This document shows positions 1-16,197 of a stretch of DNA of 64,000 nt, one piece after another. The position numbers and the translations under genes are program-made. Source of the stretch: Candidatus Latescibacterota bacterium (GTDB taxonomy: Bacteria > Latescibacterota > UBA2968 > UBA8231); contig OZ241362.1 in the NCBI GenBank assembly GCA_965200315.1, forward strand, positions 512,001 to 576,000. The letters are read 5' to 3'. How positions within the stretch are numbered: the first letter of the stretch is position 1; each line of letters starts with the position of its first letter. The notes under the pieces were generated by a model, which saw only the letters and a program-made list of their open reading frames with translations, was not told the origin of the DNA and made no database searches.

Positions 1-1150
1 GGACATCGCCGGTAGTATCAACAGACGATGTACGCGACAGGCATCGATCAAGCTTCGGATGGGATTCAAGGGCCGGGTCAAAACGAATAAGCTCTTGCAA
101 CACGTCCCCCTGTCGCCCCGGCGATTCCGGTGAGAAGGCACGATCCCAATAGGGCAACGGAGTGTCCTCACCGTTGTGGTAGTCGCTGCAAAAGTGAACG
201 CCGAATAGGATATAGACCAGTGCGGCCCGCAGCTCGCGGACAGTGATGTGGGTTTCGCCGCGCAGGTGAACGGCTTGCAACATCTCAAATAAGCACTGTC
301 GAGCGCGATCCCGCTGATCTTGCGGGGCTATGCCGGGCAGCCCTTTGGGGCCAAACAGCCGCATGGCGCGGCGAACCTCACACCGGTCTTGGGCCGAACA
401 CGTCTCGCAAGGTTCCCAAATCTGGGGGGCCTTGTCTCTGCCGTAGAGGCTGTCTAGCAGATCTTCAAGAAAGCTAGTTTCAATGTTCGATTCGCTCGGC
501 ACAACACTTCCAACAAGCGACCGTTGGTTGAGGCTGATGAAGCGAATATGCGATTCGGGAGCGGATTCTTCGCCGTTGAGCAGGTCGCGGAGAGCCCGTG
601 TCAACGGCGTTTCACTCTCGACTCTCTCAATCCACTCCAAGAGACGCCCATCGTTGATCGCCAAAAGATGGACAATGTCCTCGTCGGGCGGGCCTTTTTG
701 GAACGGCTCCAAAAATTCATCCAAAAGCTCATCGGCGGAACGGCCCTGCCACGACGCCGACCCATCGAGATTCATGCGGACGATCAGATCATCCTCCATC
801 GGATGCTCCAAAATGCGCTCTTTGGAATCGTGGACGCCAAATCCGAGGCAACCGGCAAGGTGCTGAAGCAACGCGGTTTTCCCGTCGCCAGCGTTGCCGC
901 ACAGGATGACGAGCCGGATTTTTCGACACACAATGTCGCCATACAGTGCCTCTTCGATACGGGTTTTAACATAGGTTCGCGCGGCGAAGTCCGTGTCGAG
1001 GCCGCGTGTCTCGCTGTTTCCCCAGCGAGAGCCGGGGTAGGATTGCAGTAGGGATTGGAGCCAATCCACCTCGTTCTCGCTGCGAACGGGCGGTTCCGCA
1101 CGCTCACTCTCGTTGACAGCCGGGCCACAGCTAATATGGGTTACTTTCAT
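1..1150 (-). CDS. P-loop NTPase, MAD6/DndF-like defence-associated protein (3' end runs off window)
   Basis: Not in the ORF track. Manual translation from ATG 1150 is open to base 2: MKVTHISCGPAVNESERAEPPVRSENEVDWLQSLLQSYPGSRWGNSETRGLDTDFA...LVILCGNAGDGKT (Walker A)...LAINDGRLL...CETCSAQDRC...HITVRELRAALVYILFG. Confidence 0.8.
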   Translation of the reverse strand, partial: MKVTHISCGPAVNESERAEPPVRSENEVDWLQSLLQSYPGSRWGNSETRGLDTDFAARTYVKTRIEEALYGDIVCRKIRLVILCGNAGDGKTALLQHLAGCLGFGVHDSKERILEHPMEDDLIVRMNLDGSASWQGRSADELLDEFLEPFQKGPPDEDIVHLLAINDGRLLEWIERVESETPLTRALRDLLNGEESAPESHIRFISLNQRSLVGSVVPSESNIETSFLEDLLDSLYGRDKAPQIWEPCETCSAQDRCEVRRAMRLFGPKGLPGIAPQDQRDRARQCLFEMLQAVHLRGETHITVRELRAALVYILFGVHFCSDYHNGEDTPLPYWDRAFSPESPGRQGDVLQELIRFDPALESHPKLDRCLSRTSSVDTTGDV

Positions 1151-1195
1151 CCGTTGTCGCTTTCTATAAGCATTTGAGAAAATCCTAGCTTTCCC

Positions 1196-2206
1196 CTACC
1201 CCACGCGATACCTCTCCACGGCCTCCACGTCCAGCTCAACGCCCAGCCCGGGCGCGTCCGGCACGGCCACGAAGCCATCGACCGGCGTCAGCGCACCGCC
1301 GATTAGGTCGTTTTCGCGGGTGAAGTGCAGGCTGTCCGAGGGGATGGTGGCGTTGGGAATGGTCGCGTGGACGTGCGTGCCGTACGCGCCCGACACGCCC
1401 AACCCCAACCCCACGACCTGCAACCAGACCGGCATCCCGGCCGCCGCAGCCATGCCAGCGCAGAGCTGCGCTCGCTCGAGGTTGCCGCCCAGATTGAAGC
1501 AATCGGCCGCCTCGGCGCGGATCGCGCTCAGGACCATCTGCGGATCGCCCAAATGGGGCGCGAGCCGGATGCGGGTGTGGCGGCGAAAATCGCGGTACTG
1601 GTGCCAGCCCGGCAAGTACTGGAAGGGATCTTCAAACGCCTCGATGTTATACGGCTCCAATGCCTCGGCCAGCCGCAGGCTCGCGCTCAAATCGCCAAAA
1701 GTGAAATTCGGATCGACGATAATGCCGTAGTCCGGGCCAGCGGCTTTGGTCATCAGCTCGACGGTCTCAACGATGTTCCAAGGCCGCGCCTTGAGCTTGT
1801 GGGTCTTAAACCCCCGCTTGGCCCCTTCTTCGGCCATGGCCGCGAATTCGCGCGGCTCCAGCGGCGGCGACCACCAGCCCACCGGCACTCGGTCCCAGTG
1901 CTTGGCCCCCATCAGCTTCCACGCCGGCACCCCGAGGGCCTTGCCGACGATGTCGTATAAGGCCATGACCATCGCCCCGCCTTTGTCGCCCAAGTTGACC
2001 TGTATGGGATCGACCCCGAGCCACTCGGCCTCCAAGCTGGCCAATGAGCCGCCGCGCCCTCCTTCGCCCACTCCGTAGATCGCTTCGTCGGTATGCACCT
2101 TAATCAGGCTGATGGGCCGCTCTACGTAGTCTCCGGGACGACTCTTTTCGATGGAGGGAATGTGCGGCACTGCGGTGACAAACTCTTCGATCTGGGTGAT
2201 TTTCAT
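1196..2206 (-). CDS. Mandelate racemase/muconate lactonizing enzyme family (enolase superfamily)
   Basis: MALYDIVGKALGVPAWKLMG, KLK motif, DPN, EDP, PGLGVELD; start moved to ATG 2206 with GGAGGTG SD. Confidence 0.88.
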   Translation of the reverse strand: MKITQIEEFVTAVPHIPSIEKSRPGDYVERPISLIKVHTDEAIYGVGEGGRGGSLASLEAEWLGVDPIQVNLGDKGGAMVMALYDIVGKALGVPAWKLMGAKHWDRVPVGWWSPPLEPREFAAMAEEGAKRGFKTHKLKARPWNIVETVELMTKAAGPDYGIIVDPNFTFGDLSASLRLAEALEPYNIEAFEDPFQYLPGWHQYRDFRRHTRIRLAPHLGDPQMVLSAIRAEAADCFNLGGNLERAQLCAGMAAAAGMPVWLQVVGLGLGVSGAYGTHVHATIPNATIPSDSLHFTRENDLIGGALTPVDGFVAVPDAPGLGVELDVEAVERYRVG

Positions 2207-2208
2207 GG

Positions 2209-3388
2209 TTACACCTCCCTTAGCCAGTCCTCGGGGATGTCGATCCCAAACCCAGGGCCTTTGGGCAGCCCGAGCAGGCCGTTTTGTGGCACGTTGGTCC
2301 CCGGCGGAATTTTGTAGTGTCGCTGCCCCGATTTTGAAGGCGTCCCGATATAGCACTCAGCCAATGGCACCCCGGGGAGGGAGCCGACAAAAAATTCGAT
2401 CAGCGGGGCATTGGGCATGGCCGCTGTCCAGTGCTGGCCATACGGGTCGTTGCCCCCGGTGTGCAGGCACATCTGGACGCCTTGCGAATCGGCGTAGTGG
2501 GCCAGTTTCATGGCCTCGGTAAAGCCACCGATCCAGTAGATATCGGCTTGGATCAAATCGACGAGCCGCTCTTGAACGGCCCGCATGCCCGGATGGCGCG
2601 TGGACCAGTGTTCGCCATCGGCCAGCGTCTGCCAAGGTACGCGCTGGCGCAGGGCGCGGAGCCCGTCCCAGTCGTGGGGCATCAGCATTTCCTCCATCCA
2701 GCGCATCCGCTGCGGCTTGAGTGCCTCGCAGAGACGCACGGCAAAGTCGAGGTCAAAGGTCATCCAGCAATCGAGCATCAAGTCGGCATCCGGGCCGATT
2801 AACTCGCGGCACTTGGCCATCAGCTCAACCGTGCCGTCGATGCCGGCTTGGCCATCAACGGGTCCGTGCGGAGCTTGAATTTTTTGAAACCCAACTCCAA
2901 GTGCCAATCGACATCGTTGCCGGTGGCATAGACTTCCATCTGGGTGCACTGCGGGCCGCCGGCCAGCCGATAGACGGGCTGGTCGAGGGTTTTGCCCCAC
3001 AGATCCCACAGCGCCAAATCGACTCCAGCGACCGCCCGCGCCGTAAGCCCTTCGTTGCCAAAGGAGAGCGTCCCCCGCCACATGCGATCGTTGCACCGGT
3101 CAATGGCCCCCACCTCCTGCCCGACGACTAGGGGCGCTAGGCACTCGGCGATGATCGGCTGGGTGGCACGAGCCAGCCAAAGGTGCCGTCCTCGGCGATG
3201 GCCTTGACCCAGAGCACCCCGCCCGGCTTGGGCATCATTCGCTCTTCGGGCGCGAATTTATCCATGGGCGTGGCCTGCCGAGGAGCCCAAAGCCACGCCT
3301 GCTCGCGCAGCGGGCGCGTCCCCTCTTCACTCGGTGGTGGAGGCAATAATTCAAAAGTTTGGATAGCAGCTATTTTCTTGGCGCACAA
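2209..3388 (-). pseudogene. L-rhamnonate dehydratase-like enolase-superfamily gene, frameshifted twice
   Basis: Homologous segments in three successive ORFs (AEDGTFG | ARATQPIIAECLAP...VDLALWDLWGK...YATGNDVDW...FKKFKL | PHGPVDG...LMLDCWM...WMEE...DGEH...PGFG); breaks near 3172 and 2870. Confidence 0.8.
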
Positions 3389-3401
3389 ACTCCCCGTCCT
3401 C

Positions 3402-3825
3402 TCAGTCAAGCATTGGATAGCTCTTCACCTTGATCCGTTTGACCGCGGCAACCACAAAGTTCGCATCCTGTGCCGCCTGCCGTGCATCTTCTCCATGGTA
3501 CTCGTGTTCCACAATAAAACGCTGGGGCCCGAGCTTGCGCCAGCCATAGGGAAATCTCTTCGATTCGGTCTAGTTCCAGAGTATCTACGGATTCCCGCTT
3601 CTGCCGGAGTTGCTCGGAAAACACCGGGGCAACATCGTGTACTTTGGGATAATCTACGCCCAGCACTTTCAGGCCTCCCTTCAGGGCAAGCTCGACGACT
3701 TCCTGCGAGCGCCGCACAGCCAGATTGGAGTCGGCTTCTTGCAGGGCACCTTGTACATCGCGCAGGTAGATGCGTTCGCTTTCGGCGATAAGCTGCTTGC
3801 CGATCTCTTGGAGGCTATCTTTCAT
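3402..3825 (-). pseudogene. HEPN domain protein (MNT-HEPN toxin side), apparent 1-nt frameshift near 3513
   Basis: AVRRSQEVVELALKG...PKVHDV...RAPAFY; the typical C-terminal helix VEHEYHGEDARQAAQDANFVV lies in the shifted frame ending at TGA 3402. Confidence 0.72.
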
Positions 3826-4364
3826 AGTACCAACACCTCGTTCGGTTTCAGATCTGGTTTTAAGTACCAGTACCAGCTATTGTCGAGCCAGATTTTTCGG
3901 GCACCCAATTGCCGCAGTCTATCCTGTAATTTGTCTAAGCGATGGCGAAAAAAATGCCCTCGATCCAAGAGAATCCGCGCATCTTCAATCATGTCCAAGT
4001 AGAGCGGCAGGTTTTGGTCTGCCTCTTCTCGCGTGAGAATGACGACGCTGGGGGAAGGAAAAATGCGTTGCGCGACTAAGGCCGCCCAACAGGCTTGACG
4101 CCGCAGATGTCGCAAGATAGGCAGCAACAACTGGATCCGTTCGCGAAAAGCCGGAGGGGCTTTTTCCAGCACGAGCAACAAATCCACATCGCTTTCCGTT
4201 GTCGCGTTGCCGCGGGCTACAGACCCATAGAGGACAACGGAAAGGACCGCACTATCCAGAGCTTCTTGGACCGCGGCGACGAAGCAGTCAAGCAACGGCT
4301 TATAGGTTGAGTAGCCAAATTGGGCTGGTCGGTAGGTCTCGTCGTCGATGGGAATGGTTCTCAT
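3822..4364 (-). CDS. Minimal nucleotidyltransferase (MNT antitoxin)
   Basis: LYGSVARG...SDVDLL pol-beta motif; ATGA overlap with the HEPN gene. Confidence 0.88.
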   Translation of the reverse strand: MRTIPIDDETYRPAQFGYSTYKPLLDCFVAAVQEALDSAVLSVVLYGSVARGNATTESDVDLLLVLEKAPPAFRERIQLLLPILRHLRRQACWAALVAQRIFPSPSVVILTREEADQNLPLYLDMIEDARILLDRGHFFRHRLDKLQDRLRQLGARKIWLDNSWYWYLKPDLKPNEVLVL

Positions 4365-4373
4365 ATTTGCTTC

Positions 4374-5402
4374 TTACAGTTCGAGTTGGCAGCCTCGCTC
4401 AGCCGCCTCGTACGCCGCCTCGACAAAGCGCATAGCCTGCCAAGCATCGTCGCCGTTGGTGATAAAAGTACCCTGCCCCCGGCTGGCGGCGACAAAGTCG
4501 GCGATAAAACCCAATCCGGCCGCCCCACCGTACCCGGGGGCCTCGCCAACCGAGAGGTCGAATTGACGGTACTCGTCCTCGGTCCAGCCCTCGGCTTGGC
4601 TCTGGACGACGAGCCGATCGCCGCGTCCGTCCCAGTCTTGCATCACCCAAGTCGCATCCCCGGCAGTTCCCCTGAAACACAAGTAGATATCGCCGTAACG
4701 GCGCGGCAGGACATAGCCCGCGTGGAGGCTGCCGAGCGCACCGTTGTCCATGCGGAACGAAGCGGCGAGCACGTCCTCGACGTCGATGCCAGCACCGCTC
4801 AGGGTTGCCTTGTGCGCGCTGACGCCCTTGTACTCTAGGCCGCTGATATAGCGGATCAAATCGACCGTGTGGATCGCCAGCCAGTGCAGGATGCCCCCAC
4901 CCGCCTGTGCGCGGTCAAAGAGCCAGTGGTCTGGATTGCGCTGCTGGACGGTACTGGTGATCATCCGTCCCTCAATGGAGACGATGCGGCCCAAGACGCC
5001 GGCGGCGACAAGTTGACGCGCTTTGCTGGCAACCGGATGACAGCGGTTCAAAAAGGCCGTCGCCCACAAGACCTGCTTTGCGGCGGCGATTTCGTTGAGA
5101 CGAGCGATATCAGCGGCCGTGCGCGCGACCGGTTTCTCGGCAATGGTCGGTACACCAGCCTGCAAAAGCTGCGCGATGCGGTCTGGCGCTTGGTCGTTGC
5201 GCGTACATACGATGGCTAATCCCAGCTTTTCGGCCGCCAGTAGCGCGTTTAGATTGCCATACACCTGATCGACGTCAGCGCATTCTTCGGCCGCACAGAC
5301 GACCAAGCGACCCACTGCCTCGCAATGCTGTAGCGAAGTCAGCCATCCACGACTGTGGGGATTGTCCAGCCCAACGAGGGCAGCGCACACTTTATCCGTC
5401 AT
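4374..5402 (-). CDS. Gfo/Idh/MocA family oxidoreductase
   Basis: EKP motif, GGGILHWLAIHTVD, DVED. Confidence 0.88.
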   Translation of the reverse strand: MTDKVCAALVGLDNPHSRGWLTSLQHCEAVGRLVVCAAEECADVDQVYGNLNALLAAEKLGLAIVCTRNDQAPDRIAQLLQAGVPTIAEKPVARTAADIARLNEIAAAKQVLWATAFLNRCHPVASKARQLVAAGVLGRIVSIEGRMITSTVQQRNPDHWLFDRAQAGGGILHWLAIHTVDLIRYISGLEYKGVSAHKATLSGAGIDVEDVLAASFRMDNGALGSLHAGYVLPRRYGDIYLCFRGTAGDATWVMQDWDGRGDRLVVQSQAEGWTEDEYRQFDLSVGEAPGYGGAAGLGFIADFVAASRGQGTFITNGDDAWQAMRFVEAAYEAAERGCQLEL

Positions 5403-6378
5403 GGTAATCCACTACCTTTCCTTCCCGCGCCGAGCGGTAGATGTTTTCTAACAGCGCCACCGTGCGCCGCCCCTCGCGGCCATCCACCCGCAGGGCGGTC
5501 CCGTTCTCTAGGGCCGAGACCACGTCCTCGACAACGTTGGTCAGCGGATTGTCTATGGCCAGTAGCTTTTCTTCCAGCCCATCGCCAAAGACGCGCATCT
5601 CGCCCGACAGCACGGCGTCCAGCAGCACCCCCCCTTCGCTGCCGTGGACCTCGGCGCTAAAGTACGGGCTAGCCGGGAAGGTCGTCGTGCCCAAGATGCC
5701 CCCTTTGGCCCCGCTTTCAAAATTCAAGATGGCTTGGCCAATATCCTCGGTTTCAATGTCGTGGTTCATTATGGCGGTCTCGCCATAGACAGTCTTGGGC
5801 ACACCCATGAACCACAGCAGGAGATCGATCAGGTGCGACCCCTGGTTGGCCAGCGAGCCACCGCCATCCATGGCCCAAGTGCCGCGCCAGCCGCCGCCGT
5901 GTTCAAAGTACTCCTGTGGGCGAAACCACTTAAAGCGCACCTCGCCGAGAATGGGCTTGCCCAACAGGCCCTGTTTAAGGGCTTCGGCAACGCGGTAATT
6001 GTTGGCGACGTAGCGGCTTTGGTAATCGACGCCGAGCAAGAGGCCGCCCGCGTCGGCTGCGGCGATTAATTCGTCGCAGGCTTGGGTGCTGACATCCATG
6101 GGCTTGGTGGTAATTACGTGCTTGCCGGCTCTGAGCACCTCAACGCCTATGGTTGCGTGCAGCCCGCTCGGGGTCATCACCAGCACGACGTCCACATCGC
6201 TCCGCCCCAAGGCGTCTTCGAGGGCCGTACACCACGCACAACCCATTTCCTCGCCTACTTGGCGGGCCAAGCCCTCGTTGAGATCGACGACCACGCGCAG
6301 TTCGGCCCCGGCGGTCTCAGCCACTTGCCGGGCGCGATTGCGGCCCATGCCCAGCCCTACAACAGCAAATCCGATCAT
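5392..6378 (-). CDS. Gfo/Idh/MocA family oxidoreductase
   Basis: VVGLGMG, GKHVITTKP, WRGTWAMDGGGSLANQGSHLID. Confidence 0.9.
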   Translation of the reverse strand: MIGFAVVGLGMGRNRARQVAETAGAELRVVVDLNEGLARQVGEEMGCAWCTALEDALGRSDVDVVLVMTPSGLHATIGVEVLRAGKHVITTKPMDVSTQACDELIAAADAGGLLLGVDYQSRYVANNYRVAEALKQGLLGKPILGEVRFKWFRPQEYFEHGGGWRGTWAMDGGGSLANQGSHLIDLLLWFMGVPKTVYGETAIMNHDIETEDIGQAILNFESGAKGGILGTTTFPASPYFSAEVHGSEGGVLLDAVLSGEMRVFGDGLEEKLLAIDNPLTNVVEDVVSALENGTALRVDGREGRRTVALLENIYRSAREGKVVDYHDG

Positions 6379-6392
6379 TTTGCTAGCTCCTT

Positions 6393-7049
6393 TTATATAG
6401 CCAATTCATTAAGGCGTCTATCTGTCAGCCTCTCAAGGCGTTTGGCCTGAGTTAGAAGTGTTTGGCGCAATCCCAACGAAACGTTCCGCTCGCTTATGAG
6501 CCTAGCCAAGCTGGCGATCGTACTGGCCCTTCTTGCTATTCTAATATCTGGATGTTGCTCCCTAGCGTAGATGTGCGCTGGTATTATCTTGGCTCGGTAC
6601 GATTTGGGTAGCTCAATTGGTTCCGTCGGCCGTATATCTTCCTCATTGAGAATCGCACCAATAGCAGATTTCTGCAGGAGCTTCTGGAACACGGTGTATT
6701 CCGCCCTGTCCATGAGGAGTTTGGCCATCCTCTTCTTTTCTGTCGTCTTTAGCGAAATATCAAAGAAGGGCCAAACTTCTACTTGTGCTACTTCTACAGG
6801 ATCGAGGACGAATTTAGCTACCGCATCACTCCTTCTCCCCGTAAGATGGCGACCAACCCGTTCTCGGATCCGTTCAACGGTCTGCCCCACATAAATGGGC
6901 TCATCCTCATAGTCGTAGAATGCGTAGATGCCACAAAGGGCATTGCCAATTTTGCGTCCTTGCGGGTCTTCGATGTCGTAAAATTTCTTTATCTCTTTTT
7001 GAATGTCCCTGACATCTTGTGGAGACGATTGCTTGATTTTTTGAGCCAT
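6393..7049 (-). CDS. GIY-YIG nuclease, putative restriction endonuclease
   Basis: GIYAFYD...IYVGQT...RVGRH, Glu (RAEY) and ILNE; TAATG-coupled to the methyltransferase; lower GC than neighbours. Confidence 0.78.
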   Translation of the reverse strand: MAQKIKQSSPQDVRDIQKEIKKFYDIEDPQGRKIGNALCGIYAFYDYEDEPIYVGQTVERIRERVGRHLTGRRSDAVAKFVLDPVEVAQVEVWPFFDISLKTTEKKRMAKLLMDRAEYTVFQKLLQKSAIGAILNEEDIRPTEPIELPKSYRAKIIPAHIYAREQHPDIRIARRASTIASLARLISERNVSLGLRQTLLTQAKRLERLTDRRLNELAI

Positions 7050-8185
7050 TATACCTCTACCTTGTTCAACTCATCAACAACCGGATTGAGATAATATCGG
7101 GCTATCCACTCAATGGCTGATACGCATACGGCGTCACCAAAACCAAATAGAGCCCTGTTCCGCGGTAGGTCTGGACGGAGCGTAAATTCATCTGCTCCCA
7201 TCAGGCGGGCACATTCCCGCGGCGTAAGCAGACGGACTGCATACTTTCCGTTGCCTCCTCGAAAAAGAATCTGCCGGCCACTGCCACCCCGCGGCGTTCT
7301 CAAACATCCGGCGATACCATCGGTGCGCAGTTCGGCCATGGACCGCTTGTTCCTCACTCGGCGAAAGACCGTACCATAGGAATACTTTCTGCCAGCGATC
7401 ATTTTTTCGGCAATCGCCCGGTGCCGTTCGCTCATCTGGTTCAGCAGGTATTCTGACCGTTCCTTGTTCCACCATTCCTCGACATCGTCTGGCAAGTCTT
7501 CGAGCACGTCTTCGAGTGTTTGGTTGTTACCGGTAATTTCTGGGAGCTTCCTAATATGCCATGCCAGTTCAGGATGTGTAGCCATAAAATGGGCGAGGGC
7601 TTTAGGCCGAATTTGGCTTTCTATGAGTGCCTGTTCGAGCGGTACAGGACCCTTTTGTTCTCCCTCGACGCCCACCACAAAGAGCCTTTGCCGACTTTGC
7701 GGAACAAACCACGCCGCATTAAGGATAAAGGCATCCACCTGATAGTCTAGATCGTTCAGGGCATGTAATGCACAGCACAAGTCATCGCCTTTGTGGGAGG
7801 TCAAGAAGCCGGTGACATTTTCTAAAAGAACGATTGCGGGCCGTCGGTCGTCCATTTCTTCTAAAACCCGCACAAATCCCCAAAAGGCAGAGGACGATTT
7901 ACCGTTTAGTCCACGTCTGGCCCCGGCAATAGAGAGATCATTGCATGGAAAAGAGGCCGTAGCAAGAGTAACTGACGGCAGCCAAGCCCCTTCTACGTTG
8001 TGGATATCTCCTACGATGAAATGCTCGTCGGCATCCGCGAAGTGGGCCTTGTACATCGCATACTTTTCCTCAGCGATATCATTGGCCCAAGATATGTTCC
8101 ACCCTTGGCGTTCAAGGCCCATTCTCATCAGACCGATACCGGCAAAGAACTCGGCAAACGTTTTTTTTATAGTGATCTCGATCAC
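7049..8185 (-). CDS. DNA (cytosine-5)-methyltransferase
   Basis: Motif I FFAGIG, IV SFPCNDLS, VI LENV, VIII PQSRQR, IX RLLTPRECARLMG, X GDAV. Confidence 0.95.
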   Translation of the reverse strand: MIEITIKKTFAEFFAGIGLMRMGLERQGWNISWANDIAEEKYAMYKAHFADADEHFIVGDIHNVEGAWLPSVTLATASFPCNDLSIAGARRGLNGKSSSAFWGFVRVLEEMDDRRPAIVLLENVTGFLTSHKGDDLCCALHALNDLDYQVDAFILNAAWFVPQSRQRLFVVGVEGEQKGPVPLEQALIESQIRPKALAHFMATHPELAWHIRKLPEITGNNQTLEDVLEDLPDDVEEWWNKERSEYLLNQMSERHRAIAEKMIAGRKYSYGTVFRRVRNKRSMAELRTDGIAGCLRTPRGGSGRQILFRGGNGKYAVRLLTPRECARLMGADEFTLRPDLPRNRALFGFGDAVCVSAIEWIARYYLNPVVDELNKVEV

Positions 8186-8220
8186 TCCTTACTTCCGTAC
8201 CTACGAAGCGAAATTCTTTA

Positions 8221-8373
8221 GAAGCCGTCTGAAAACGCCAAGTTCGGCTCCTCAAACGGCTCCAAGACCCTTGGATCGAGGGCGTCTCGCCCTCGCAAAA
8301 CGCTTAACGCCACGGCCACGGGCCAGCTCACACCAAGCACCAAGCAATCCAATGGGAGTTTTCAGACCGCCTC
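8221..8373. mobile_element. 153-bp MITE (non-autonomous, IS5/IS1182-like ends)
   Basis: Left end GAAGCCGTCTGAAAAC vs reverse complement of right end GAGGCGGTCTGAAAAC (14/16); TTA on both flanks (8218-8220, 8374-8376); no transposase. Confidence 0.72.
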
Positions 8374-8507
8374 TTAGGCAGCCGCACGGCTTAGCTGCGA
8401 CATTCACAAAGAGATTGGCAATTCTAGGTTTCACGATAAAAGCCTTCTCTTTGTCATAATAGTACATACCAAAATCAACCCGGGCGGTTGTGCTACCTTG
8501 TCGCCCG

Positions 8508-10136
8508 TCAATCTTCCACCACATGTAACCGCTGGTTGACAGCCAAGTCTTTGAGCACTTGTATCCCCCCGGCCGGCCAGTGAATTTCCAGCCGCTCGAT
8601 GCGTTCGGCTGTTCCCAAGCCAAACACGGGGTCGCGCTGACTAGTCGAGAGGAAACCCGACCCGGCCTTGACCTCCCTGAACTGCCGTCGGCCATCGGCC
8701 CATAGATACAGGCGGGTGCCGATGCCGTCGCGATTGCTCTGCCGGCCTTCTAGCGCGACCGCGAGGTAGTTGCCTCGGGGACCGTCGTTGCGCAGCAGGG
8801 CGAAGCGGCGGCCGTTGTTGACGAGGGCAATGTCCAAGTCGCCATCTTGGTCAATGTCCCCAAAGGAGGAGCCGCGCACCACGTAGGCGGCTGCGAAAGC
8901 CGGACCGCTTTCAGCGGTCACCTCGCGGAAGACACCCGCGCCCCCATTGCGAAAGAGCTGGGCCTGTTGCGCGTAGGTCACCAACTCGTCGTACTGTTCG
9001 ATGTTGTCGTGGACGTGGCCGTTGCCCACGAACAGGTCGAGGTACCCATCGTTGTCGAAATCGAAAAACCCCGTGCCAAAGCCAAGGTAGTTCAGGCTGA
9101 GGTCGCCGAGGCCAGCCTTGAAGCTGATCTCGGAGTAAAACGAGCCATCGTTGCGATAGAGCCCGTTGTTTTCCAACTGGTAGTTGGTGACGAAGAGGTC
9201 GAGGTCGCCGTCTTGGTCTATGTCGCCAGCATCGACGCCCATGCCCGCTTGGCTAGCCCCGTCGGCGCTCAGCGCGGTCCCGGCCAGCAAGCCGGTCTCG
9301 GCAAAGGTGCCGTCGCCTTGGTTGACGTAGTGGAAATTGGGCGTCAAGTCGTTGGCCACGTATATGTCCGGGTCGCCGTCCCCATCGAAGTCGCCAGCCA
9401 CGGCGCCTAGCCCATTGCCCTCACCCGTGATACCCGCTTGGCGGCCGATCTCGGAAAAGACGCCGCGGCCCTCATTGCGGTAGAGAATGTCTGCGGTGGA
9501 AGCAAAGACTCGTGGATCGCAGTAGAAGCGCAGCCCCATGTCCTCGCGTCCACACCAAGGCTGCTCCCCCAAGACAAAGCGGACGTATTGCGCGGCAAAG
9601 AGGTCAAGGTCGCCGTCGAGATCGTAGTCGAACGCAACGGCGCTAGTCGTCCATCCCGTGTGGCCGAGACCGGCCTCGTCCGTTGCATCGACATAACCCC
9701 CCTCTTCGCGCCGGTAGAACTGGTCTGGCCCCCACGCCGTCAGATAGAGGTCTGGGTCGCCGTCGCCATCGTAGTCGGCCGCGGTCACCCCCATGCCATA
9801 GGAAGTGCCAAGCGCACCCGCTACGCCATCCACCCGTGCAAAGATGCGCCCGTCGTTGCGAAAGAGCTGATTAGAGGCTGTGCCCCGCCCCCGCTCCAAG
9901 TCCCCGCTGTTGACCAAGTACAAGTCCCAATCTCCGTCACCGTCGTCGTCGAGAAAGGCACTGCCAGCACCGTTGGTCTCGGGCAGTCGCTTTTGCGGCG
10001 AGGACCCATTGTCGTGGACGAAGTCAATGCCTAATTCGCGGGCGACCTCCGCGAAGTGGCTCTGCCCATAGCTAGCTGCCGACAGCAGGAGCACGAGCAG
10101 CAGGCTTCGACCTGAGCCCAGCCGAAGGGCACCCAC
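8508..10136 (-). CDS. CRTAC1-family FG-GAP repeat protein with C-terminal ASPIC/UnbV domain
   Basis: Signal peptide; repeated DxDGDGDxDL motifs; SNRDGIG...GSGFLS...FGLG...IHWP. Confidence 0.9.
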   Translation of the reverse strand: MGALRLGSGRSLLLVLLLSAASYGQSHFAEVARELGIDFVHDNGSSPQKRLPETNGAGSAFLDDDGDGDWDLYLVNSGDLERGRGTASNQLFRNDGRIFARVDGVAGALGTSYGMGVTAADYDGDGDPDLYLTAWGPDQFYRREEGGYVDATDEAGLGHTGWTTSAVAFDYDLDGDLDLFAAQYVRFVLGEQPWCGREDMGLRFYCDPRVFASTADILYRNEGRGVFSEIGRQAGITGEGNGLGAVAGDFDGDGDPDIYVANDLTPNFHYVNQGDGTFAETGLLAGTALSADGASQAGMGVDAGDIDQDGDLDLFVTNYQLENNGLYRNDGSFYSEISFKAGLGDLSLNYLGFGTGFFDFDNDGYLDLFVGNGHVHDNIEQYDELVTYAQQAQLFRNGGAGVFREVTAESGPAFAAAYVVRGSSFGDIDQDGDLDIALVNNGRRFALLRNDGPRGNYLAVALEGRQSNRDGIGTRLYLWADGRRQFREVKAGSGFLSTSQRDPVFGLGTAERIERLEIHWPAGGIQVLKDLAVNQRLHVVED

Positions 10137-10138
10137 TG

Positions 10139-10999
10139 CTATCCCCTGAGCAGCGGATCAATATGGTCCTTGGCGCGCAACAAACCTTCCTGTTGCAGTT
10201 CGGGCGTCTGCCAGAAGTAGTGATCTTCGAGTTCCACCGAGAGCACGCCGTCGTAACCCGCGTCTTCGAGTCGGCGTATTACGAAGTTCCAATCTACCTC
10301 GCCCTCGCCGGGGATGGTATAGCGCCACCAGCCCTCGCCGCACACGTAGGTCGAGCTGTATGCCTCGCCCAAGTTGCCGGATTCGTAGAGCTTTTCCGGC
10401 ATGATCTCGGTATCCTTGAGATGGACGTGCCGCACGCGGTCGCCAAACTCGTGCAAGAGCCGCTGATAGTCTATTTGCAGGCGCACGAAGTGGGAGGGAT
10501 CGTAGCAGATGCCCAGCCGTGGCGACGGGCACACTTCAAAAATCAAGCGCAGGCTCTCGGGCGAGCAACCCAGATTGGGGTAGTGGGGCCGGCCGCCCGG
10601 CCAAGGTTCAATGGCGATATTGACGCCCACCTTCTCGGCGTGGGCCACGACTCGGGGATAGACCTTGGAAAAAATCTCAAAGGTCTCGGCTTTGGACATG
10701 CTCGGGTCGTCTGGGCCGAGCACGGTAAAGAGCGTGTGGCCGCCGTGCCGGGCAATCGCGCTCAGGCTCTTCTTGAGCTCGCTCAAGCCCTTGCGGCGCT
10801 TGGCCGCGTCGCGGGTGAGGACTTGGCCGCCACCGTCCGAAGTGCCGATGGCCAAGCCTAATTGATCGCAGGTGCGGGCAATCTGGCGGGTCAAAGGCGG
10901 GGTATCGACCGCGCCAAAACCGCTGTCGGCCAACCACGCGGCATAGGCGTCAAAGCCGATCTGCTGGGAAAACGGGGGCATGCGGGTGCCGATTTTCAT
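10139..10999 (-). CDS. Sugar phosphate isomerase/epimerase (xylose isomerase-like TIM barrel)
   Basis: IAIEP, YDPSH, HVHLKD, PGEGEVDW, LSVELE. Confidence 0.88.
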   Translation of the reverse strand: MKIGTRMPPFSQQIGFDAYAAWLADSGFGAVDTPPLTRQIARTCDQLGLAIGTSDGGGQVLTRDAAKRRKGLSELKKSLSAIARHGGHTLFTVLGPDDPSMSKAETFEIFSKVYPRVVAHAEKVGVNIAIEPWPGGRPHYPNLGCSPESLRLIFEVCPSPRLGICYDPSHFVRLQIDYQRLLHEFGDRVRHVHLKDTEIMPEKLYESGNLGEAYSSTYVCGEGWWRYTIPGEGEVDWNFVIRRLEDAGYDGVLSVELEDHYFWQTPELQQEGLLRAKDHIDPLLRG

Positions 11000-11026
11000 G
11001 GGGTATTCCCTTCTATATGGGTTGGA

Positions 11027-12181
11027 TTAAATGGGTATGCGGCCCTGCTTCTCTGGATCGACCCACTGGGTTACTACCAGCGAGACAAGGGCCAAGAGTG
11101 CGCCGCTGACAAAAATGACCTCGTAGCCAAACAAGAGCCAGGCGTATCCGCCGACTAAGGGGGCGGCCACGGCCGCGACGTGGTTCATGGTCACCCCCAT
11201 AGAGAGGGTGGGTTTGAGTTCGTCTGGGGGCGCGATTTTGTGCGCGTAGGTCGTTAGCGCGATTCCGCCGAAGAAGATGAGGTTGTCGAGGCAATAGAGC
11301 GCGTACAGGCTCAGCCGGTGCTCCACGAACGCGTAGCCCAAAAAGACGAAGACCAACACGCTATAACTTAGCGTGAGCATCCGCCGCTCACCAAAGCGAT
11401 CGACCAAACGGCCCATCCACGCAGCCGTCAAGGTGATGAGCACTTGGTTGATCAACACTAAGACCATGGTCGTCTCCACCGGCATCCCGTGAACTTTCAC
11501 GAGGGCGAAGATGGCGAAGGTGATGAACATCTGCTTGCGCAGGCCCTGAAGGAAATTCAGGGCATAGTAGAGCAGATAGCGCCGCTTGAATACCAAGCGC
11601 TTCTCGCCGGCCGGCCGGTCCTTGGTATCGGCCCAAAACAGGGCCAAACCGCCCGCGGCCGTACACGCACCGGCCAAGACAAAGCCCCCCTCATAGCGCA
11701 AAAACTCCAGTCCCACCATGCACACGCCAATCGCCGCTAGCCAAGCCAAGCTGCTGATACTGCGCAATTGTCCCAGCCAGCGGCCCTTATCCGCGGTTGG
11801 GCTGTAGTTCAAGCCCATGCTCTGCTCTAGCGGGAGCCAGCAGTGAAAACCCAAGCTCCACACCAGCGAGCACGAGGCCAGCATGAAAACCGAGGACACC
11901 TCGGCGTACGCGGCAAGCCCAATCCCCATCACCACCAGTGAAACTGCGGCAACTTTCGGCGGGGCCCAGCGGACGATCAGCACCAGAAAGAACGCGTTGA
12001 GAAAACCGGGGACTTCGCGCAGGGCTTCCACATAGCCCAACTCGTGCGGCTCAATGCCCAGCCGTTCGACGATGAAGTTGTTGAACAGGGTCAACTGCAC
12101 CCCGAAGAACACCCCCGTCCCGGCCACGGCCACGGCTAAGAGCGCGAAGTTTTTATTCCACTCTGCGAAAGGATTGGCGAT
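11027..12181 (-). CDS. MFS transporter (start uncertain: ATC 12181 or GTG 12133)
   Basis: ~12 hydrophobic segments, GRLVDRFGERR motif; SD-like AAGGGGG precedes an in-frame ATC. Confidence 0.85.
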   Translation of the reverse strand: MANPFAEWNKNFALLAVAVAGTGVFFGVQLTLFNNFIVERLGIEPHELGYVEALREVPGFLNAFFLVLIVRWAPPKVAAVSLVVMGIGLAAYAEVSSVFMLASCSLVWSLGFHCWLPLEQSMGLNYSPTADKGRWLGQLRSISSLAWLAAIGVCMVGLEFLRYEGGFVLAGACTAAGGLALFWADTKDRPAGEKRLVFKRRYLLYYALNFLQGLRKQMFITFAIFALVKVHGMPVETTMVLVLINQVLITLTAAWMGRLVDRFGERRMLTLSYSVLVFVFLGYAFVEHRLSLYALYCLDNLIFFGGIALTTYAHKIAPPDELKPTLSMGVTMNHVAAVAAPLVGGYAWLLFGYEVIFVSGALLALVSLVVTQWVDPEKQGRIPI

Positions 12182-12314
12182 AGCAGCCCCCTTGTTGATG
12201 TAGTGAATTCAAGTGTGCTTTCCTCTCGCAGTCAACCGAGCGCCCGGCCACTTGACGCCCGGATGGACAGCCCTTAAGCTAGCGTTTCCAACCAACGCAA
12301 AGGAGATTGTTACG

Positions 12315-13058
12315 ATGGCCGACGAACGCGTCTTTGTTGGCGACCTGACCCGCAAGGAATTCCGCGAGCGCATCCAAGCGGGCACGATCAAGGCCGCCAT
12401 AGTACCCACCGCCGCAACCGAACAGCACAACGAACACCTGCACATGATCCACGACACCTTCCACGCCAGCTATATGGCCGAGCACGCAGCCAAAAAGCTC
12501 CTGCCCCAAGTAGTGGTAGCCACTCCAGTGGGCATCGGCGTTTCCGAGCACTGGATGAAGCACATCGGCACCCTGACTGTGCGGCCGGAAATTTTCTGCG
12601 AATACGTCTTCGACGTCTGCCATTCACTTGCGAGGGCTGGCGTTGAGAACATCTTGGTGCTCAACGGCCACGGCGGCAACGTCAAACCCATGATGCGCCG
12701 CATTGACGAATACCGGGAAAAACTCGGCGTCAACCTCCGCTTCCAGTCCTATTGGGACGTATATGACCCCGACTACGTGCAGCAATACATGGAGCAGGGG
12801 CGCCTGCCTGGGCACGCCGACGAATTCGAGACCTCGACTATGCTCTATCTAGCACCGGAGCGCGTACAGACCGAGGCCATTGACAACCCGGCCGCCGCCT
12901 TGGGTACGCGTACCAAGGGCGAAGCCCTAGTGGGGCCAGCCGTGGCCGGGGTCGCTGCGCTGTTGGAACAAATGATCGCCGGCGAGGAAATCGACCTGCC
13001 GCCGGTGACCTTCTATCCAGAAGGCAAGCGCAACCTCGTTACCGGCGAGCCGGTCTGA
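12315..13058 (+). CDS. Creatininase/creatinine amidohydrolase family protein
   Basis: TEQHNEHL..HD, SEHW, NGHGGN, HADEFETS; AAGGAG SD. Confidence 0.9.
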   Translation: MADERVFVGDLTRKEFRERIQAGTIKAAIVPTAATEQHNEHLHMIHDTFHASYMAEHAAKKLLPQVVVATPVGIGVSEHWMKHIGTLTVRPEIFCEYVFDVCHSLARAGVENILVLNGHGGNVKPMMRRIDEYREKLGVNLRFQSYWDVYDPDYVQQYMEQGRLPGHADEFETSTMLYLAPERVQTEAIDNPAAALGTRTKGEALVGPAVAGVAALLEQMIAGEEIDLPPVTFYPEGKRNLVTGEPV

Positions 13059-14088
13059 GCACGACCCCCAGCGCTTCGGCTGGCGACTCGACGAGTACAT
13101 CTACGGCCGCGGCGATCTCTTCAAGCACAAACTCGTGGGTATAGAGCGGTTGGACGCGCAGCTTCCCGGCGGCCATGGCGCACAGACACTCGGCTAGGTT
13201 GCGCTGAGTCGGCCATTCGACGAAGACCTCGGGATATGCTTGGCCGCGCTCATAAGCTGGGTCGTGATAGCCAGGACCAGTGCGCGCCGCACTCCGCACA
13301 TCCACATTGCCCAGCGCGGCCCCAAACCCGTGCGCTACCTGCGCTCCTCCCACCAAGACAATGCGCCCCATGCGATGCGTATCCGGCGCTTGCTTTAGGC
13401 TCTGATAGATGGCGACAAACGCATCGCTGGCCTCGCCGCCAAAGGCAATGACGCCGAAATCCATACCATACCCTTGGGTAAATTCTCCGGCCTGCTCAAC
13501 CACATCCTGCCCGGCCGGATCGACGACGCCCTCTATGCCCACCTGCCGGGCAATGTCTCGACGGCGCGCAAAGCGATCGGCCCCCAAAACGTGACAGCCG
13601 CTTAGCTGGGCAAATTGAGCCGTAAACTGGCCGACCAAGCCCAACCCGACGACGATCCCATTCTCCCCGTACAAAGGGGCTGTGCGGCGCACCGCGTGTA
13701 ATCCGGTCGCCGCCAGATGTACAGACGCGGCCTCGGCAAAGCCAACGCCTGCGGGTATGGCCGCGCACAAATTCTGCGGCACGCAGGCCCAATCCGCGTG
13801 CAGGGCGTACCCACCCCCCATGCAGGCCACGCCCTGCCCCACTGCAAATTGCGCTACCCCAGCCCCGACCTCCTCAACGACGCCGGCGTTGCTATAGCCA
13901 AAAGGGCGCGGCGGCCTGTGGGGCTGGGGGTTTTCTCGCATCGCCCCCACCCGCCCCAACTCGCTCCCCGGGCTGATCACCGAAGCCTCCACTCGCACCT
14001 TTACCTCGCCGGGGCCGAGTGCGGGCATGGCTTCCTCTAGGTACACTCCCTGACCACGGCCATCAATAGCGGCGACTTTCCGCTGCAT
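13039..14088 (-). CDS. MDR (zinc-binding alcohol dehydrogenase-like) oxidoreductase
   Basis: ISPGSE, GYSNAG, GLGLVG; AAGGAGG SD. Confidence 0.85.
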   Translation of the reverse strand: MQRKVAAIDGRGQGVYLEEAMPALGPGEVKVRVEASVISPGSELGRVGAMRENPQPHRPPRPFGYSNAGVVEEVGAGVAQFAVGQGVACMGGGYALHADWACVPQNLCAAIPAGVGFAEAASVHLAATGLHAVRRTAPLYGENGIVVGLGLVGQFTAQFAQLSGCHVLGADRFARRRDIARQVGIEGVVDPAGQDVVEQAGEFTQGYGMDFGVIAFGGEASDAFVAIYQSLKQAPDTHRMGRIVLVGGAQVAHGFGAALGNVDVRSAARTGPGYHDPAYERGQAYPEVFVEWPTQRNLAECLCAMAAGKLRVQPLYTHEFVLEEIAAAVDVLVESPAEALGVVLRPARR

Positions 14089-14110
14089 AAGCACCTCCTT
14101 CTCGTGCTGC

Positions 14111-14142
14111 TATTACTTATATATTTACTTATATTTACTTAT
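14111..14142. repeat. AT-rich 10-bp tandem (ATATTTACTT x2 plus a partial copy) between divergent genes
   Basis: tattacttat atatttactt atatttactt at. Confidence 0.6.
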
Positions 14143-14173
14143 TCTTTGTATCTATCGCCCTATTCGAGGCCCT

Positions 14174-14944
14174 GTGAACGTCATCATCGCTGCAATTTTA
14201 GGCGGCATCTTCTTGGTTTGGGGCGGGTTTTTGGGCCTGCTCCGCATCGCGGATCCCTTCGAGCGCAAACATGTGTTGATCCTCGCCGCGTACACCACTA
14301 TGGTCGTCGGCTGTGTCATGGGCCTGGTGCTCTTTATCAATCACGATCAGCAAAAGAAACACCGCTCCCAGCTAGACGAGCAAATGGACGAGTTCTCCAC
14401 TCGCCTCTCCGATCTGAGCACCCGACTCATTGGCCAGCTAGAGGAAAAAGCCAATCTGACCACTTCTGAATTCGAGATTCGCTCCCGCCTACAAAACGAA
14501 GTGGATCACCACAAGCGCACCCTCAACCAATTAGCGACCCAAATCGAGCACAACAACGCCCTGCAAAACAAAATGGACGCCGAGCGCAAGGAGCGGCTGC
14601 GCTACCAAGCCGACACCGACCGCAAGCTCGAAGAACGCTTCGAGCAGGAGGACTTGCGCTACCAAAACCTCGCCAAGACCCACCAGCGCTCTTTAGCCAG
14701 CATACAGGCGCAGTTTGGCCCCCTCAACAGCACCTTGACCCGCCTGCAAGAGCAAACCGCAACCTTGCAGAGCAATCAGCAGGCGATTATAGACAGGATC
14801 GCCGCCGCCCGCGGGACTCAGAGGCTCTCGGCGCAAAAACTCGATGCGCTCGCCCGCAGCCTGAGCGCCCTGTCCAACGACTTTAACCAAACTATGGCGC
14901 AAATTGATAGCCTATATAATAGAACATCTATCCCAACACCTTAA
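14174..14944 (+). CDS. Hypothetical membrane protein, 2 TM + long coiled coil
   Basis: Two N-terminal hydrophobic helices followed by Q/E/L heptads. Confidence 0.75.
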   Translation: MNVIIAAILGGIFLVWGGFLGLLRIADPFERKHVLILAAYTTMVVGCVMGLVLFINHDQQKKHRSQLDEQMDEFSTRLSDLSTRLIGQLEEKANLTTSEFEIRSRLQNEVDHHKRTLNQLATQIEHNNALQNKMDAERKERLRYQADTDRKLEERFEQEDLRYQNLAKTHQRSLASIQAQFGPLNSTLTRLQEQTATLQSNQQAIIDRIAAARGTQRLSAQKLDALARSLSALSNDFNQTMAQIDSLYNRTSIPTP

Positions 14945-14954
14945 GGAGCCGACA

Positions 14955-15770: not shown

Positions 15771-15777
15771 CTTGGCC

Positions 15778-16197
15778 TCACCAAGTGTGGACATAGACTG
15801 CCGAGCGCACCTTTTCTCCGGCTTGGTCGGTCGAGAGCAGCGAGTCGGCAAACGACGCGTGTTTGGCCAGCCGCTCTCGGCTCCCCCCTTTGAGAAACAA
15901 ATGCAAACTAGCTTCGGGCTCGGCGACCAGCCGGCGCACCATCCGACGGAATTCCCACTCGCTCAAGGGGTTGTCGATGGTGTAGCCATCGCGCGATAGC
16001 CCCGTACCCGCGCTCGTGTACAGCACGACCCGATCCCCGGGCTGTGGGTCGTGGCGATGCACCCGCCAGACCGGTTGCGTTGCATTGAGGATCATAATGC
16101 CCAAGCTCAGCATCAGCATCATAATGCCCAAGAAGAGTTCCTTGCTGATATCGTGCTCTTCGAGCTCGGCGGATTGGCGTTTGAGATAGCGGCTCAC
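15778..16197 (-). CDS. Divergent ExbD/TolR-like single-TM protein
   Basis: 139 aa, one N-terminal TM after acidic residues; GTGA overlap with the ExbB-like gene. Confidence 0.55.
   Translation of the reverse strand: MSRYLKRQSAELEEHDISKELFLGIMMLMLSLGIMILNATQPVWRVHRHDPQPGDRVVLYTSAGTGLSRDGYTIDNPLSEWEFRRMVRRLVAEPEASLHLFLKGGSRERLAKHASFADSLLSTDQAGEKVRSAVYVHTW

What the first reader, a model, noticed from the sequence alone, without database searches (positions are those of the whole stretch)
1..1150. Hidden defence NTPase: a MAD6/DndF-like protein apparently stripped of its nuclease and kinase domains
Seen: a 383-codon open frame missed by the ORF track, with Walker A GNAGDGKT, AINDGRLL, a CxxC-x5-C cluster and HITVRELR. 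From recalled family knowledge, this NTPase module is the C-terminal part of large NERD-kinase-ATPase proteins (MADS MAD6-type) and resembles DndF. The first 17 residues (MKVTHISCGPAVNESER) look like the start of a NERD domain, yet they join directly to the pre-ATPase linker near nt 1100. Inference: an in-frame deletion removed the nuclease and kinase domains, leaving a DndF-like ATPase-only variant. Any partner genes would lie left of the window. A cytosine methyltransferase 6 kb upstream raises the possibility of an m5C-gated MADS/DndFGH-like system.
Basis: partly seen in the sequence, partly recalled or inferred. Interest (0 to 1): 0.75.

Follow-up and report, generated by a model that had tools for sequence, protein, structure and literature searches.

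The report
DndF-like gene with deleted effector domains
An anti-phage defence gene at the window's left edge has lost, through one clean 2.2-kb in-frame deletion, the nuclease and kinase parts that its closest relatives carry, leaving only its nucleotide-binding core; this is a tidy natural case of domain loss within a defence family already in print, not a new system.

Summary
The open frame is real: window 2..1150 (-), 383 codons, running off the left edge. It is the start of a 606-aa protein, P0002. All four motifs are present.

Residues 1-17 match residues 1-17 of the 1342-aa relative P0122 (16/17). Residues 18-601 match its residues 756-1342 (84%). At DNA level the window is collinear with the syntenic Latescibacterota loci L001 and L002 up to nt ~1100, then skips 2,214 nt (738 codons). 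The lost part holds the NERD nuclease and the kinase region.

The remaining part is a DndF/SspF-like core. It shows no sign of decay: lineage pN/pS 0.19, and 3 deviations at 250 conserved columns, equal to the family median.

In relatives the gene heads an F-G-H operon. G follows F in 77 of 80 loci and H in 75 of 80; the rest lack sequence downstream. An intact G homologue sits on a contig of the same length as P0002's.

The NERD-kinase-DndF architecture is already in print (PMC10853773). The m5C-gating idea is not supported: the methylase pairs with its own GIY-YIG nuclease, and only 5 of 80 related loci show a methylase match. No read data were available.

The parts
2..1150 (-). First 383 of 606 codons of a dndF/sspF-like gene (protein P0002), running off the window's left edge
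   Evidence: PADLOC SspF 4e-13 and DndF 1.7e-6; DptF TIGR03238 1.1e-5, below cutoff
1100..1150 (-). Native start codon plus 16 codons (MKVTHISCGPAVNESER). This is the vestige of the N-terminus of the ancestral NERD-kinase-DndF protein. Only its last 5 residues fall inside the Pfam NERD match of the relative
   Evidence: 16/17 identical to P0122 residues 1-17; DNA collinear with L001 up to 7785; NERD = P0122 residues 13-83; low pLDDT in the model
1099..1100 (-). Deletion junction. 2,214 nt (738 codons, P0122 residues 18-755) are missing relative to L001 7787-10000. No convincing microhomology
875..898 (-). Walker A / P-loop GNAGDGKT (residues 85-92)
   Evidence: invariant in A3
638..661 (-). 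AINDGRLL (residues 164-171), containing the 'ND' motif described for the DndF P-loop kinase
   Evidence: motif description from passages of PMC10853773
380..409 (-). Cys cluster C248-x2-C251-x5-C257; with C321 (nt 190-188) a likely Zn-binding insert of the lid
   Evidence: four invariant Cys in 75 sequences; Zn-chelating lid insert described in PMC10853773. Metal binding is inferred
227..250 (-). HITVRELR (residues 301-308) with invariant R305, a candidate for the lid arginine
   Evidence: The assignment to the lid arginine is inferred
1151..1195 (-). 45-nt spacer between the upstream MR_MLE gene's stop and the start codon, the same length as in L001. The native translation start context is therefore retained

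Best explanation
The frame is the 5' two-thirds of a dndF/sspF-family gene in an uncultured Latescibacterota-like genome. Its closest relatives encode a ~1330-aa protein with four parts: a NERD nuclease, a middle region, a Ser/Thr kinase, and a DndF core. The published family description calls the middle region an inactive kinase. The core is a derived P-loop nucleotide-binding domain with a large Cys-containing lid, plus a C-terminal alpha+beta domain. This protein heads a three-gene F-G-H operon in which G is MAD7/SspG-like and H is a 1660-aa protein with a DndH/MAD8-like HerA/FtsK ATPase end. In this genome one 2,214-nt in-frame deletion joined codon 17 to the linker just before the core. 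It removed the nuclease and kinase region but kept the native start, the upstream context and the whole core. SHOWN: the deletion, its exact ends, the synteny, an intact and normally conserved core, and an intact G homologue on a contig of the same length. INFERRED, about 55% likely: the 606-aa product still serves as the nucleotide-binding subunit of an F-G-H restriction complex, like naturally core-only F proteins. The proposed back-up or suicide effector arm (self-DNA cleavage by NERD, protein phosphorylation by the kinase) would be lost. The deletion arose by illegitimate recombination without useful homology.
For: BLASTP of P0002 against P0122 gives 1-17 vs 1-17 (16/17) and 18-601 vs 756-1342 (495/589, 84%). 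blastn shows the window collinear with L001 and L002 through the upstream genes up to nt ~1100, then jumping from L001 7785 to 10001 (sequences). Among the 120 best 'longer' hits, 102 carry NERD PF08378 and 117 carry Pkinase PF00069 (my count of the table). Of 80 related loci, 61 have an uninterrupted F ORF of at least 1250 aa. P0122 domains: NERD 13-83, Pkinase 482-693, SspF-like 798-1054. G follows F in 77 of 80 loci and H in 75 of 80; those without have no room on the contig. No other gene is conserved beside them. G homologue P0398 (599 aa, 82% identity, full coverage) lies on a contig of 5,359,245 nt, the same length as P0002's contig. Core constraint: pairwise dN/dS of the window against its 4 nearest relatives is 0.21-0.23, against 0.14-0.23 among those four long-form relatives and up to 0.30 across the 11-sequence set. 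Lineage-specific changes are 49 synonymous and 29 non-synonymous, pN/pS 0.19, against 0.11-0.21 in the four relatives. P0002 deviates at 3 of 250 columns that are at least 95% conserved, rank 54 of 96, median 3. Two loci with unrelated genes upstream (L051, L066) have naturally short F with complete G and H. In a FastTree of 83 rows the window, L051 and L066 sit in three separate places among long forms. The AF2 model has pLDDT 92.9 and pTM 0.91, with only the first ~20 residues uncertain. The architecture and the proposed roles come from passages of PMC10853773 and PMC12839542.
Against: No reads could be inspected. The allele is seen in one sequence on one contig only. The left flank is outside the window, so F-G adjacency and an intact H in this genome are unverified. 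A neighbouring MR_MLE gene (about 2212-3409) is split over three frames, so either the assembly has indel errors or the region is decaying. If the deletion is very recent, normal conservation says nothing about present function. Matches to the curated DptF, MADS6 and MADS7 models are all below their cutoffs. No member of this clade has been tested experimentally as far as my searches show. My scans annotated only the C-terminal ~340 residues of H.
Confidence: 0.8

Rival explanations
1. The deletion is a loss-of-function lesion. The gene is a young pseudogene in a defence operon that is being lost, and its intact frame is luck (1 chance in 3) plus too little time to decay.
For: Ten of 80 related loci have F broken by frameshifts or stops, including the close relatives L003 and L009, so F disruption is common. 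A neighbouring gene in the window is frameshifted. Conservation tests cannot exclude a very recent event.
Against: The native start and all 589 core residues are intact. Lineage pN/pS is 0.19, not towards 1. There is no excess of changes at conserved sites. G is intact on a contig of the same length. Core-only F occurs naturally with complete G and H (L051, L066).
Confidence: 0.3
2. The deletion is an assembly artefact or a minority structural variant, and the real genome carries the full-length gene.
For: Single assembly, single contig. The neighbouring gene has two frameshifts that could be consensus errors. Reads were not available.
Against: Assembly errors of this type are usually small indels or repeat collapses. 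Here 2,214 nt are missing with no repeat at the ends, and the frame is preserved exactly.
Confidence: 0.06
3. The gene is part of an m5C-gated MADS-like system together with the C5 methylase at 7049-8185.
For: A methylase lies 6 kb upstream on the same strand. The N-terminal half of F in relatives, and their G, resemble MAD6 and MAD7.
Against: The methylase overlaps a GIY-YIG nuclease gene, giving it its own R-M partner. Two MR_MLE genes, two GFO/IDH/MocA genes and a HEPN-MNT pair lie between it and F. A methylase match is present in only 5 of 80 related loci: two remnants, two full-length syntenic copies and one 37%-identical copy. No gene other than F, G and H is conserved within +/-10 kb. 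L001 keeps a full F-G-H operon beside a methylase remnant.
Confidence: 0.03
4. This is an ancestrally short, stand-alone DndF-like gene with no deletion.
For: Core-only forms exist (Chloracidobacterium P0062/P0070, L051, L066).
Against: The 17 N-terminal residues and the upstream DNA are orthologous to those of the long gene at the same chromosomal site. The window protein is nested in a clade of long forms with SH-like support 95.
Confidence: 0.01

Closest known systems
DndF proteins with an N-terminal NERD + inactive kinase + active S/T/Y kinase fusion (a subset of DndFGH systems; PMC10853773, PMC12839542, passages read)
   Same: The closest relatives (84-86% identical in the core) have this domain order and head an F-G-H operon. 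The core shows a canonical Walker A, an ND motif, a Cys-bearing lid and a C-terminal alpha+beta domain.
   Different: The window protein lacks residues 18-755 of that architecture and keeps only a 17-residue vestige of the N-terminus.
Canonical core-only DndF/DptF and SspF
   Same: Length of about 550-600 aa, P-loop at the N-terminus, PADLOC SspF and DndF matches starting at profile position ~32-36, and a partner H with a DndH-like HerA/FtsK end.
   Different: Similarity is weak: DptF scores 24.5 bits against a cutoff of 50. The core-only state here is secondary, produced by deletion. No dnd or ssp modification genes are conserved next to the relatives. G matches MAD7 better than SspG, and no DndG hit was found.
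MADS (methylation-associated defence system) MAD6-MAD7-MAD8 of Pseudomonas aeruginosa (preprint 10.1101/2023.03.30.534895, passages read)
   Same: In the long relatives the N-terminal half matches MADS6 (2.6e-55), G matches MADS7 (6.7e-42) and the H C-terminus matches mad8 (9e-18).
   Different: The NCBIfam matches are far below their curated cutoffs (188 vs 460 bits; 144 vs 410 bits). The MAD6-like half is exactly what the window gene has lost. No mad1-5 equivalents (methylase, specificity subunit) are conserved beside F-G-H.
PglW of type 2 BREX
   Same: The same N-terminal NERD-pseudokinase-kinase arrangement followed by a sensory half, as stated in PMC12839542.
   Different: The C-terminal half and the partner genes are different. 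This comparison was not tested here by sequence.

Membership tests
DndF (as defined in PMC10853773) | Derived P-loop kinase with a canonical Walker A | tested here: met
   GNAGDGKT at residues 85-92; G85, G88-T92 invariant in 75 sequences
DndF (as defined in PMC10853773) | Conserved ND motif and a large helical lid, in some versions with a Zn-chelating insert | tested here: met
   N166-D167 within AINDG. The model is largely helical between residues ~226 and 455. C248, C251, C257 and C321 are invariant. Metal binding itself was not tested
DndF (as defined in PMC10853773) | C-terminal alpha+beta domain after the lid | tested here: met
   The AF2 model shows strands 460-598 interleaved with two helices. 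There is no PDB fold match, in line with the paper's statement that no related fold is found
DndF/DptF (NCBIfam TIGR03238) and PADLOC DndF/SspF | HMM score above the curated cutoff | tested here: not met
   TIGR03238 scores 24.5 bits against a cutoff of 50. PADLOC SspF 4e-13 and DndF 1.7e-6 cover only the first ~270 of 525-600 profile positions
DndFGH / SspFGH-type operon | F followed by G and H | tested here: inconclusive
   In relatives, G follows F in 77 of 80 loci and H in 75 of 80. In the window's genome an intact G homologue lies on a contig of equal length, but adjacency and H could not be seen
MAD6 (MADS) | Match to the MAD6 models (NERD plus kinase) | tested here: not met
   P0001 and P0002 give no mad6 or MADS6 hit. 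The models match only residues 6-578 or 480-760 of the long relative P0122
NERD nuclease (PF08378) | NERD domain present | tested here: not met
   No Pfam hit in P0002. Only 5 residues of the relative's 13-83 match remain
STAND / NACHT NTPases | Pfam score above the gathering threshold | tested here: not met
   NACHT scores 19.6 bits against 26.7, over the P-loop only (residues 79-103)

The most novel reading that the evidence does not exclude
The loss of the MAD6-like nuclease-kinase half is not decay but a recurrent, selected 'disarming'. F-G-H systems would switch between an effector-armed form and a core-only sensor form. The core alone would be sufficient for restriction with G and H, and the N-terminal half would be a dispensable and costly suicide module. 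This window would have caught the switch in the act, with the native start codon and 17 vestigial residues still attached. Support so far: at least three independent losses on the core tree (window, L051, L066), an undegraded core, and disruptions that lie in the N-terminal half while the core stays open in 7 of the 10 broken loci (not statistically tested).
Probability: 0.25. Interest if true: 0.5.

Novelty: new member of a known kind. Interest (0 to 1): 0.35.

Why it matters
The case offers a natural deletion mutant. The N-terminal NERD and kinase domains of this DndF subset have been proposed to be optional back-up effectors bolted onto a sensor core (PMC10853773, passages). Here the same chromosomal locus exists with those domains (L001, L002) and without them (window), with the rest of the protein 84-85% identical. 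This gives a ready-made construct pair for testing whether the core alone supports F-G-H defence and what the nuclease and kinase add. It also warns annotators that this 606-aa protein should not be called MAD6 or a protein kinase by transfer from its 85%-identical relatives. Otherwise it is an ordinary member of a family already in print.

Tried and rejected
(1) Microhomology at the junction. I compared both flanks in 10 Latescibacterota loci. The 4-nt GCGG overlap that BLAST suggested against L002 is out of register, so no convincing repeat was found.

(2) Solved structures. phmmer with P0002 gave 0 hits, and a profile of A1 gave 4 chance-level hits (E 0.16-0.74). Foldseek of the AF2 model against the PDB gave 0 matches at E<=0.001, with only generic P-loop similarity and TM about 0.2.

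(3) Complex prediction of G (alignment A4) with F residues 18-400 (alignment A3). The tool returned 'no answer', with scores 0.00 and 0.00, and the controls were not run. This is not used as evidence either way.

(4) The promoter scan of window 1-2600 found 0 sigma-70-like sites and is uninformative.

(6) The first tree run did not finish in time, so I used FastTree. Eight loci were left out of the tree: L013, L018 and L065 (cut by contig ends); L020, L049 and L069 (core frameshifted); L021 and L026 (stop inside the extracted stretch).

(7) A conserved modification partner was considered and rejected. All-against-all clustering of 2,988 ORFs from the 80 loci gave only F, G and H as conserved real genes; the other large clusters are overlapping ORFs inside them.

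(8) STAND/NACHT assignment was considered and rejected because the match is the P-loop only.

Other copies of the deletion allele and the left flank of this contig therefore stayed unchecked.

Full report
OBSERVATION. On the minus strand an ATG at nt 1150 opens a frame that runs to nt 2 without a stop. It has 383 codons and is open at the window edge. The in-frame codons between the stop of the upstream gene (TAG, 1198-1196) and this ATG contain no ATG, GTG or TTG, so 1150 is the first possible start. The protein collection holds the same protein continued to 606 aa (P0002, 100% identity over the 383 residues; one sequence, one contig of 5,359,245 nt). Their key residues are invariant in a 75-sequence alignment of the family.

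WHAT THE PROTEIN IS. Pfam gives only sub-threshold P-loop matches (NACHT 19.6 bits against a cutoff of 26.7). PADLOC gives SspF (4e-13, residues 62-318 on profile positions 36-273 of 600) and DndF (1.7e-6). NCBIfam gives DptF/TIGR03238 at 1.1e-5, which is 24.5 bits against a cutoff of 50. The P-loop therefore sits where it sits in DndF and SspF, near the N-terminus of a ~600-aa protein. An AlphaFold2 model built from 75 sequences is confident (pLDDT 92.9, pTM 0.91). It shows a P-loop alpha/beta part, a long helical region (about 226-455) and a C-terminal strand-rich domain (460-598). Only the first ~20 residues are uncertain. No solved structure resembles the model beyond the generic P-loop. 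This layout fits the published dissection of DndF: a derived P-loop kinase with a canonical Walker A, an ND motif, a large lid that sometimes carries a Zn-chelating insert, and a fold-orphan alpha+beta domain (PMC10853773, passages read).

THE DELETION. A search among longer proteins found 1397 matches at E<=0.001. The best 120 are 68-86% identical. By my count of the table, 102 of them carry NERD (PF08378) and 117 carry a protein kinase domain (PF00069), and 95 are at least 1250 aa long. In the all-against-library search the match lies at about residues 730-1100 of ~1300-1380-aa proteins. The closest named relative, P0122 (1342 aa, from a Latescibacteria MAG chromosome), has NERD at 13-83, Pkinase at 482-693 and the SspF-like part at 798-1054.

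BLASTP of P0002 against P0122 gives two collinear pieces. Residues 1-17 match residues 1-17 (16/17 identical), and residues 18-601 match residues 756-1342 (495/589, 84%). At DNA level the reverse complement of window 1-9000 aligns with locus L001 continuously through the upstream genes up to L001 7785 (87.9%). It resumes at L001 10001, one base further on in the window. With L002 the upstream collinearity runs from window 8189 to 1096 at 89%. Counting the unaligned base, 2,214 nt (738 codons) are absent, corresponding to P0122 residues 18-755.

The start codon, the 45-nt spacer to the upstream gene and the first 17 codons are orthologous to those of the long gene. In ten Latescibacterota relatives the two break points share no convincing repeat. 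The GCGG overlap suggested by BLAST against L002 is out of register. The event therefore looks like illegitimate recombination.

In a FastTree of the core the window protein sits inside a clade of Latescibacterota long forms (7 rows, SH-like support 95). The tree has 83 rows; 8 loci were left out for cut or broken cores. The short form here is thus derived, not ancestral.

THE SYSTEM. In L001 the long gene (7736-11764) is followed by a 598-aa gene (11772-13568) and then a 1662-aa gene (13570-18558). The 598-aa protein matches PADLOC mad7 at 3.7e-14 and SspG weakly; the window-genome homologue P0398 matches NCBIfam MADS7 at 6.7e-42, which is 144 bits against a cutoff of 410. The last ~340 residues of the 1662-aa protein match DndH (4.6e-23), mad8 (9e-18) and HerA. 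The N-terminal 578 residues of P0122 match NCBIfam MADS6 (2.6e-55, 188 bits against a cutoff of 460).

Across the 80 related loci fetched from species-representative genomes, a G homologue follows F in 77 and an H homologue in 75. The three and five loci without them have no room left on the contig. Clustering of 2,988 ORFs from these loci found no other conserved real gene within +/-10 kb. This is therefore a self-contained F-G-H module. It mixes features that PADLOC and NCBIfam file under Dnd, Ssp and MADS. The F architecture is described in print for 'a subset of DndF proteins' (PMC10853773 and PMC12839542, passages).

For the window's own genome I could not see the left flank. However, a full-length G homologue (P0398, 599 aa, 82% identity, 100% coverage) lies on a contig of 5,359,245 nt, the same length as P0002's contig.

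IS THE REMNANT ALIVE? The 606-aa frame is intact. Pairwise dN/dS of the 366 core codons in the window against its four nearest relatives is 0.21-0.23. Among those four long-form relatives it is 0.14-0.23, and up to 0.30 across the 11-sequence set. Changes assignable to the window's own lineage are 49 synonymous and 29 non-synonymous (pN/pS 0.19), against 0.11-0.21 for the four relatives. At the 250 columns that are at least 95% conserved among 95 long forms, P0002 deviates at 3, which equals the median and ranks 54 of 96.

Core-only F proteins also exist naturally. L051 (Bryobacterales) and L066 (Longimicrobiales) have unrelated genes upstream and complete G and H downstream. A Chloracidobacterium group has 578-aa forms. 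On the tree the label 'short' needs four changes, three of them inside the long-form clade.

Among the 80 loci, 61 have an uninterrupted long F and 7 are cut by contig ends. Ten have the N-terminal region present but broken by frameshifts or stops, and 2 are truly short. All of this is compatible with a still-functional core subunit, but it cannot exclude a very recent inactivating event.

There are further cautions. The second MR_MLE gene next door (about 2212-3409) is split over three frames relative to intact orthologues, so either the assembly carries indel errors or the neighbourhood is decaying. The allele is known from a single assembly.

MECHANISM. The proposed mechanism is inferred from the family literature, not shown here. 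F would act as the nucleotide-binding subunit, proposed in PMC10853773 to sense invader-derived nucleotides or macromolecules. G would act as a DNA-binding subunit. H would act as the restriction and translocase subunit with a HerA/FtsK motor. The same paper proposes that the NERD and kinase domains of the long forms are co-effectors that act suicidally if the main restriction fails. The window allele would then be a system reduced to its core, without that back-up arm.

THE METHYLASE. The C5 methylase (7049-8185, PF00145 at 6e-48) overlaps by its stop and start a GIY-YIG nuclease gene (6393-7049), which makes a plausible R-M pair of its own. Two GFO/IDH/MocA oxidoreductase genes, a HEPN-MNT pair and two MR_MLE genes separate it from F. 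A methylase match is present in only 5 of 80 related loci: L002 and L004 full-length and syntenic, L001 and L005 as remnants, and L055 at 37% identity. The m5C-gating idea is not supported.

VERDICT. The 'MAD6-type NTPase' label and the m5C link are not supported. The family and its domain architecture are already in print. What is new is one clean, syntenically anchored deletion allele. Searches for prior description of such an allele or of this clade found nothing specific. Supplements of the two NAR papers were not opened and may list related architectures.

Noticed in passing
window ~2212..3409 (-): The second MR_MLE (enolase-superfamily) gene is split over three reading frames relative to the intact 420-aa orthologues in L001 (5427-6689) and L002. 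That implies two frameshifts: either a pseudogene or assembly indel errors.
   Followed up: partly
window 6393..8185 (-): A C5 cytosine methylase (7049-8185) and a GIY-YIG nuclease (6393-7049) overlap at stop and start, which makes a likely type II R-M pair. Full-length syntenic copies occur in L002 and L004, and only remnants in L001 and L005.
   Followed up: partly
window 3406..4364 (-): A HEPN (3406-3825) and minimal nucleotidyltransferase (3822-4364) gene pair, toxin-antitoxin-like, is inserted among the metabolic genes.
   Followed up: no
L019 11752-15437; L078 11779-15427: Two Caldilineaceae loci carry two tandem G-like genes between F and H (two tblastn pieces covering 1190-1192 query residues).
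   Followed up: no
L021, L036, L037 (H region, about 13583-17434): In three Bryobacterales loci the H match covers only ~1253 of 1662 residues, so their H appears to lack the C-terminal part seen elsewhere.
   Followed up: no
L003 ~9008; L009 ~8885-8979: The two nearest relatives after L001 and L002 have F split by a frameshift around residue 400. The downstream ORFs of 911 and 971 aa still hold the kinase and the core. This could be real or an assembly error.
   Followed up: partly
all 80 loci (tree): The F core tree mixes many phyla (Latescibacterota, Pseudomonadota, Chloroflexota, Planctomycetota, Spirochaetota, Acidobacteriota and others), which implies frequent horizontal transfer of the F-G-H module. 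The flanking housekeeping proteins are 91-94% identical between the window and L001/L002, against 84-85% for the F core and 82% for G.
   Followed up: partly
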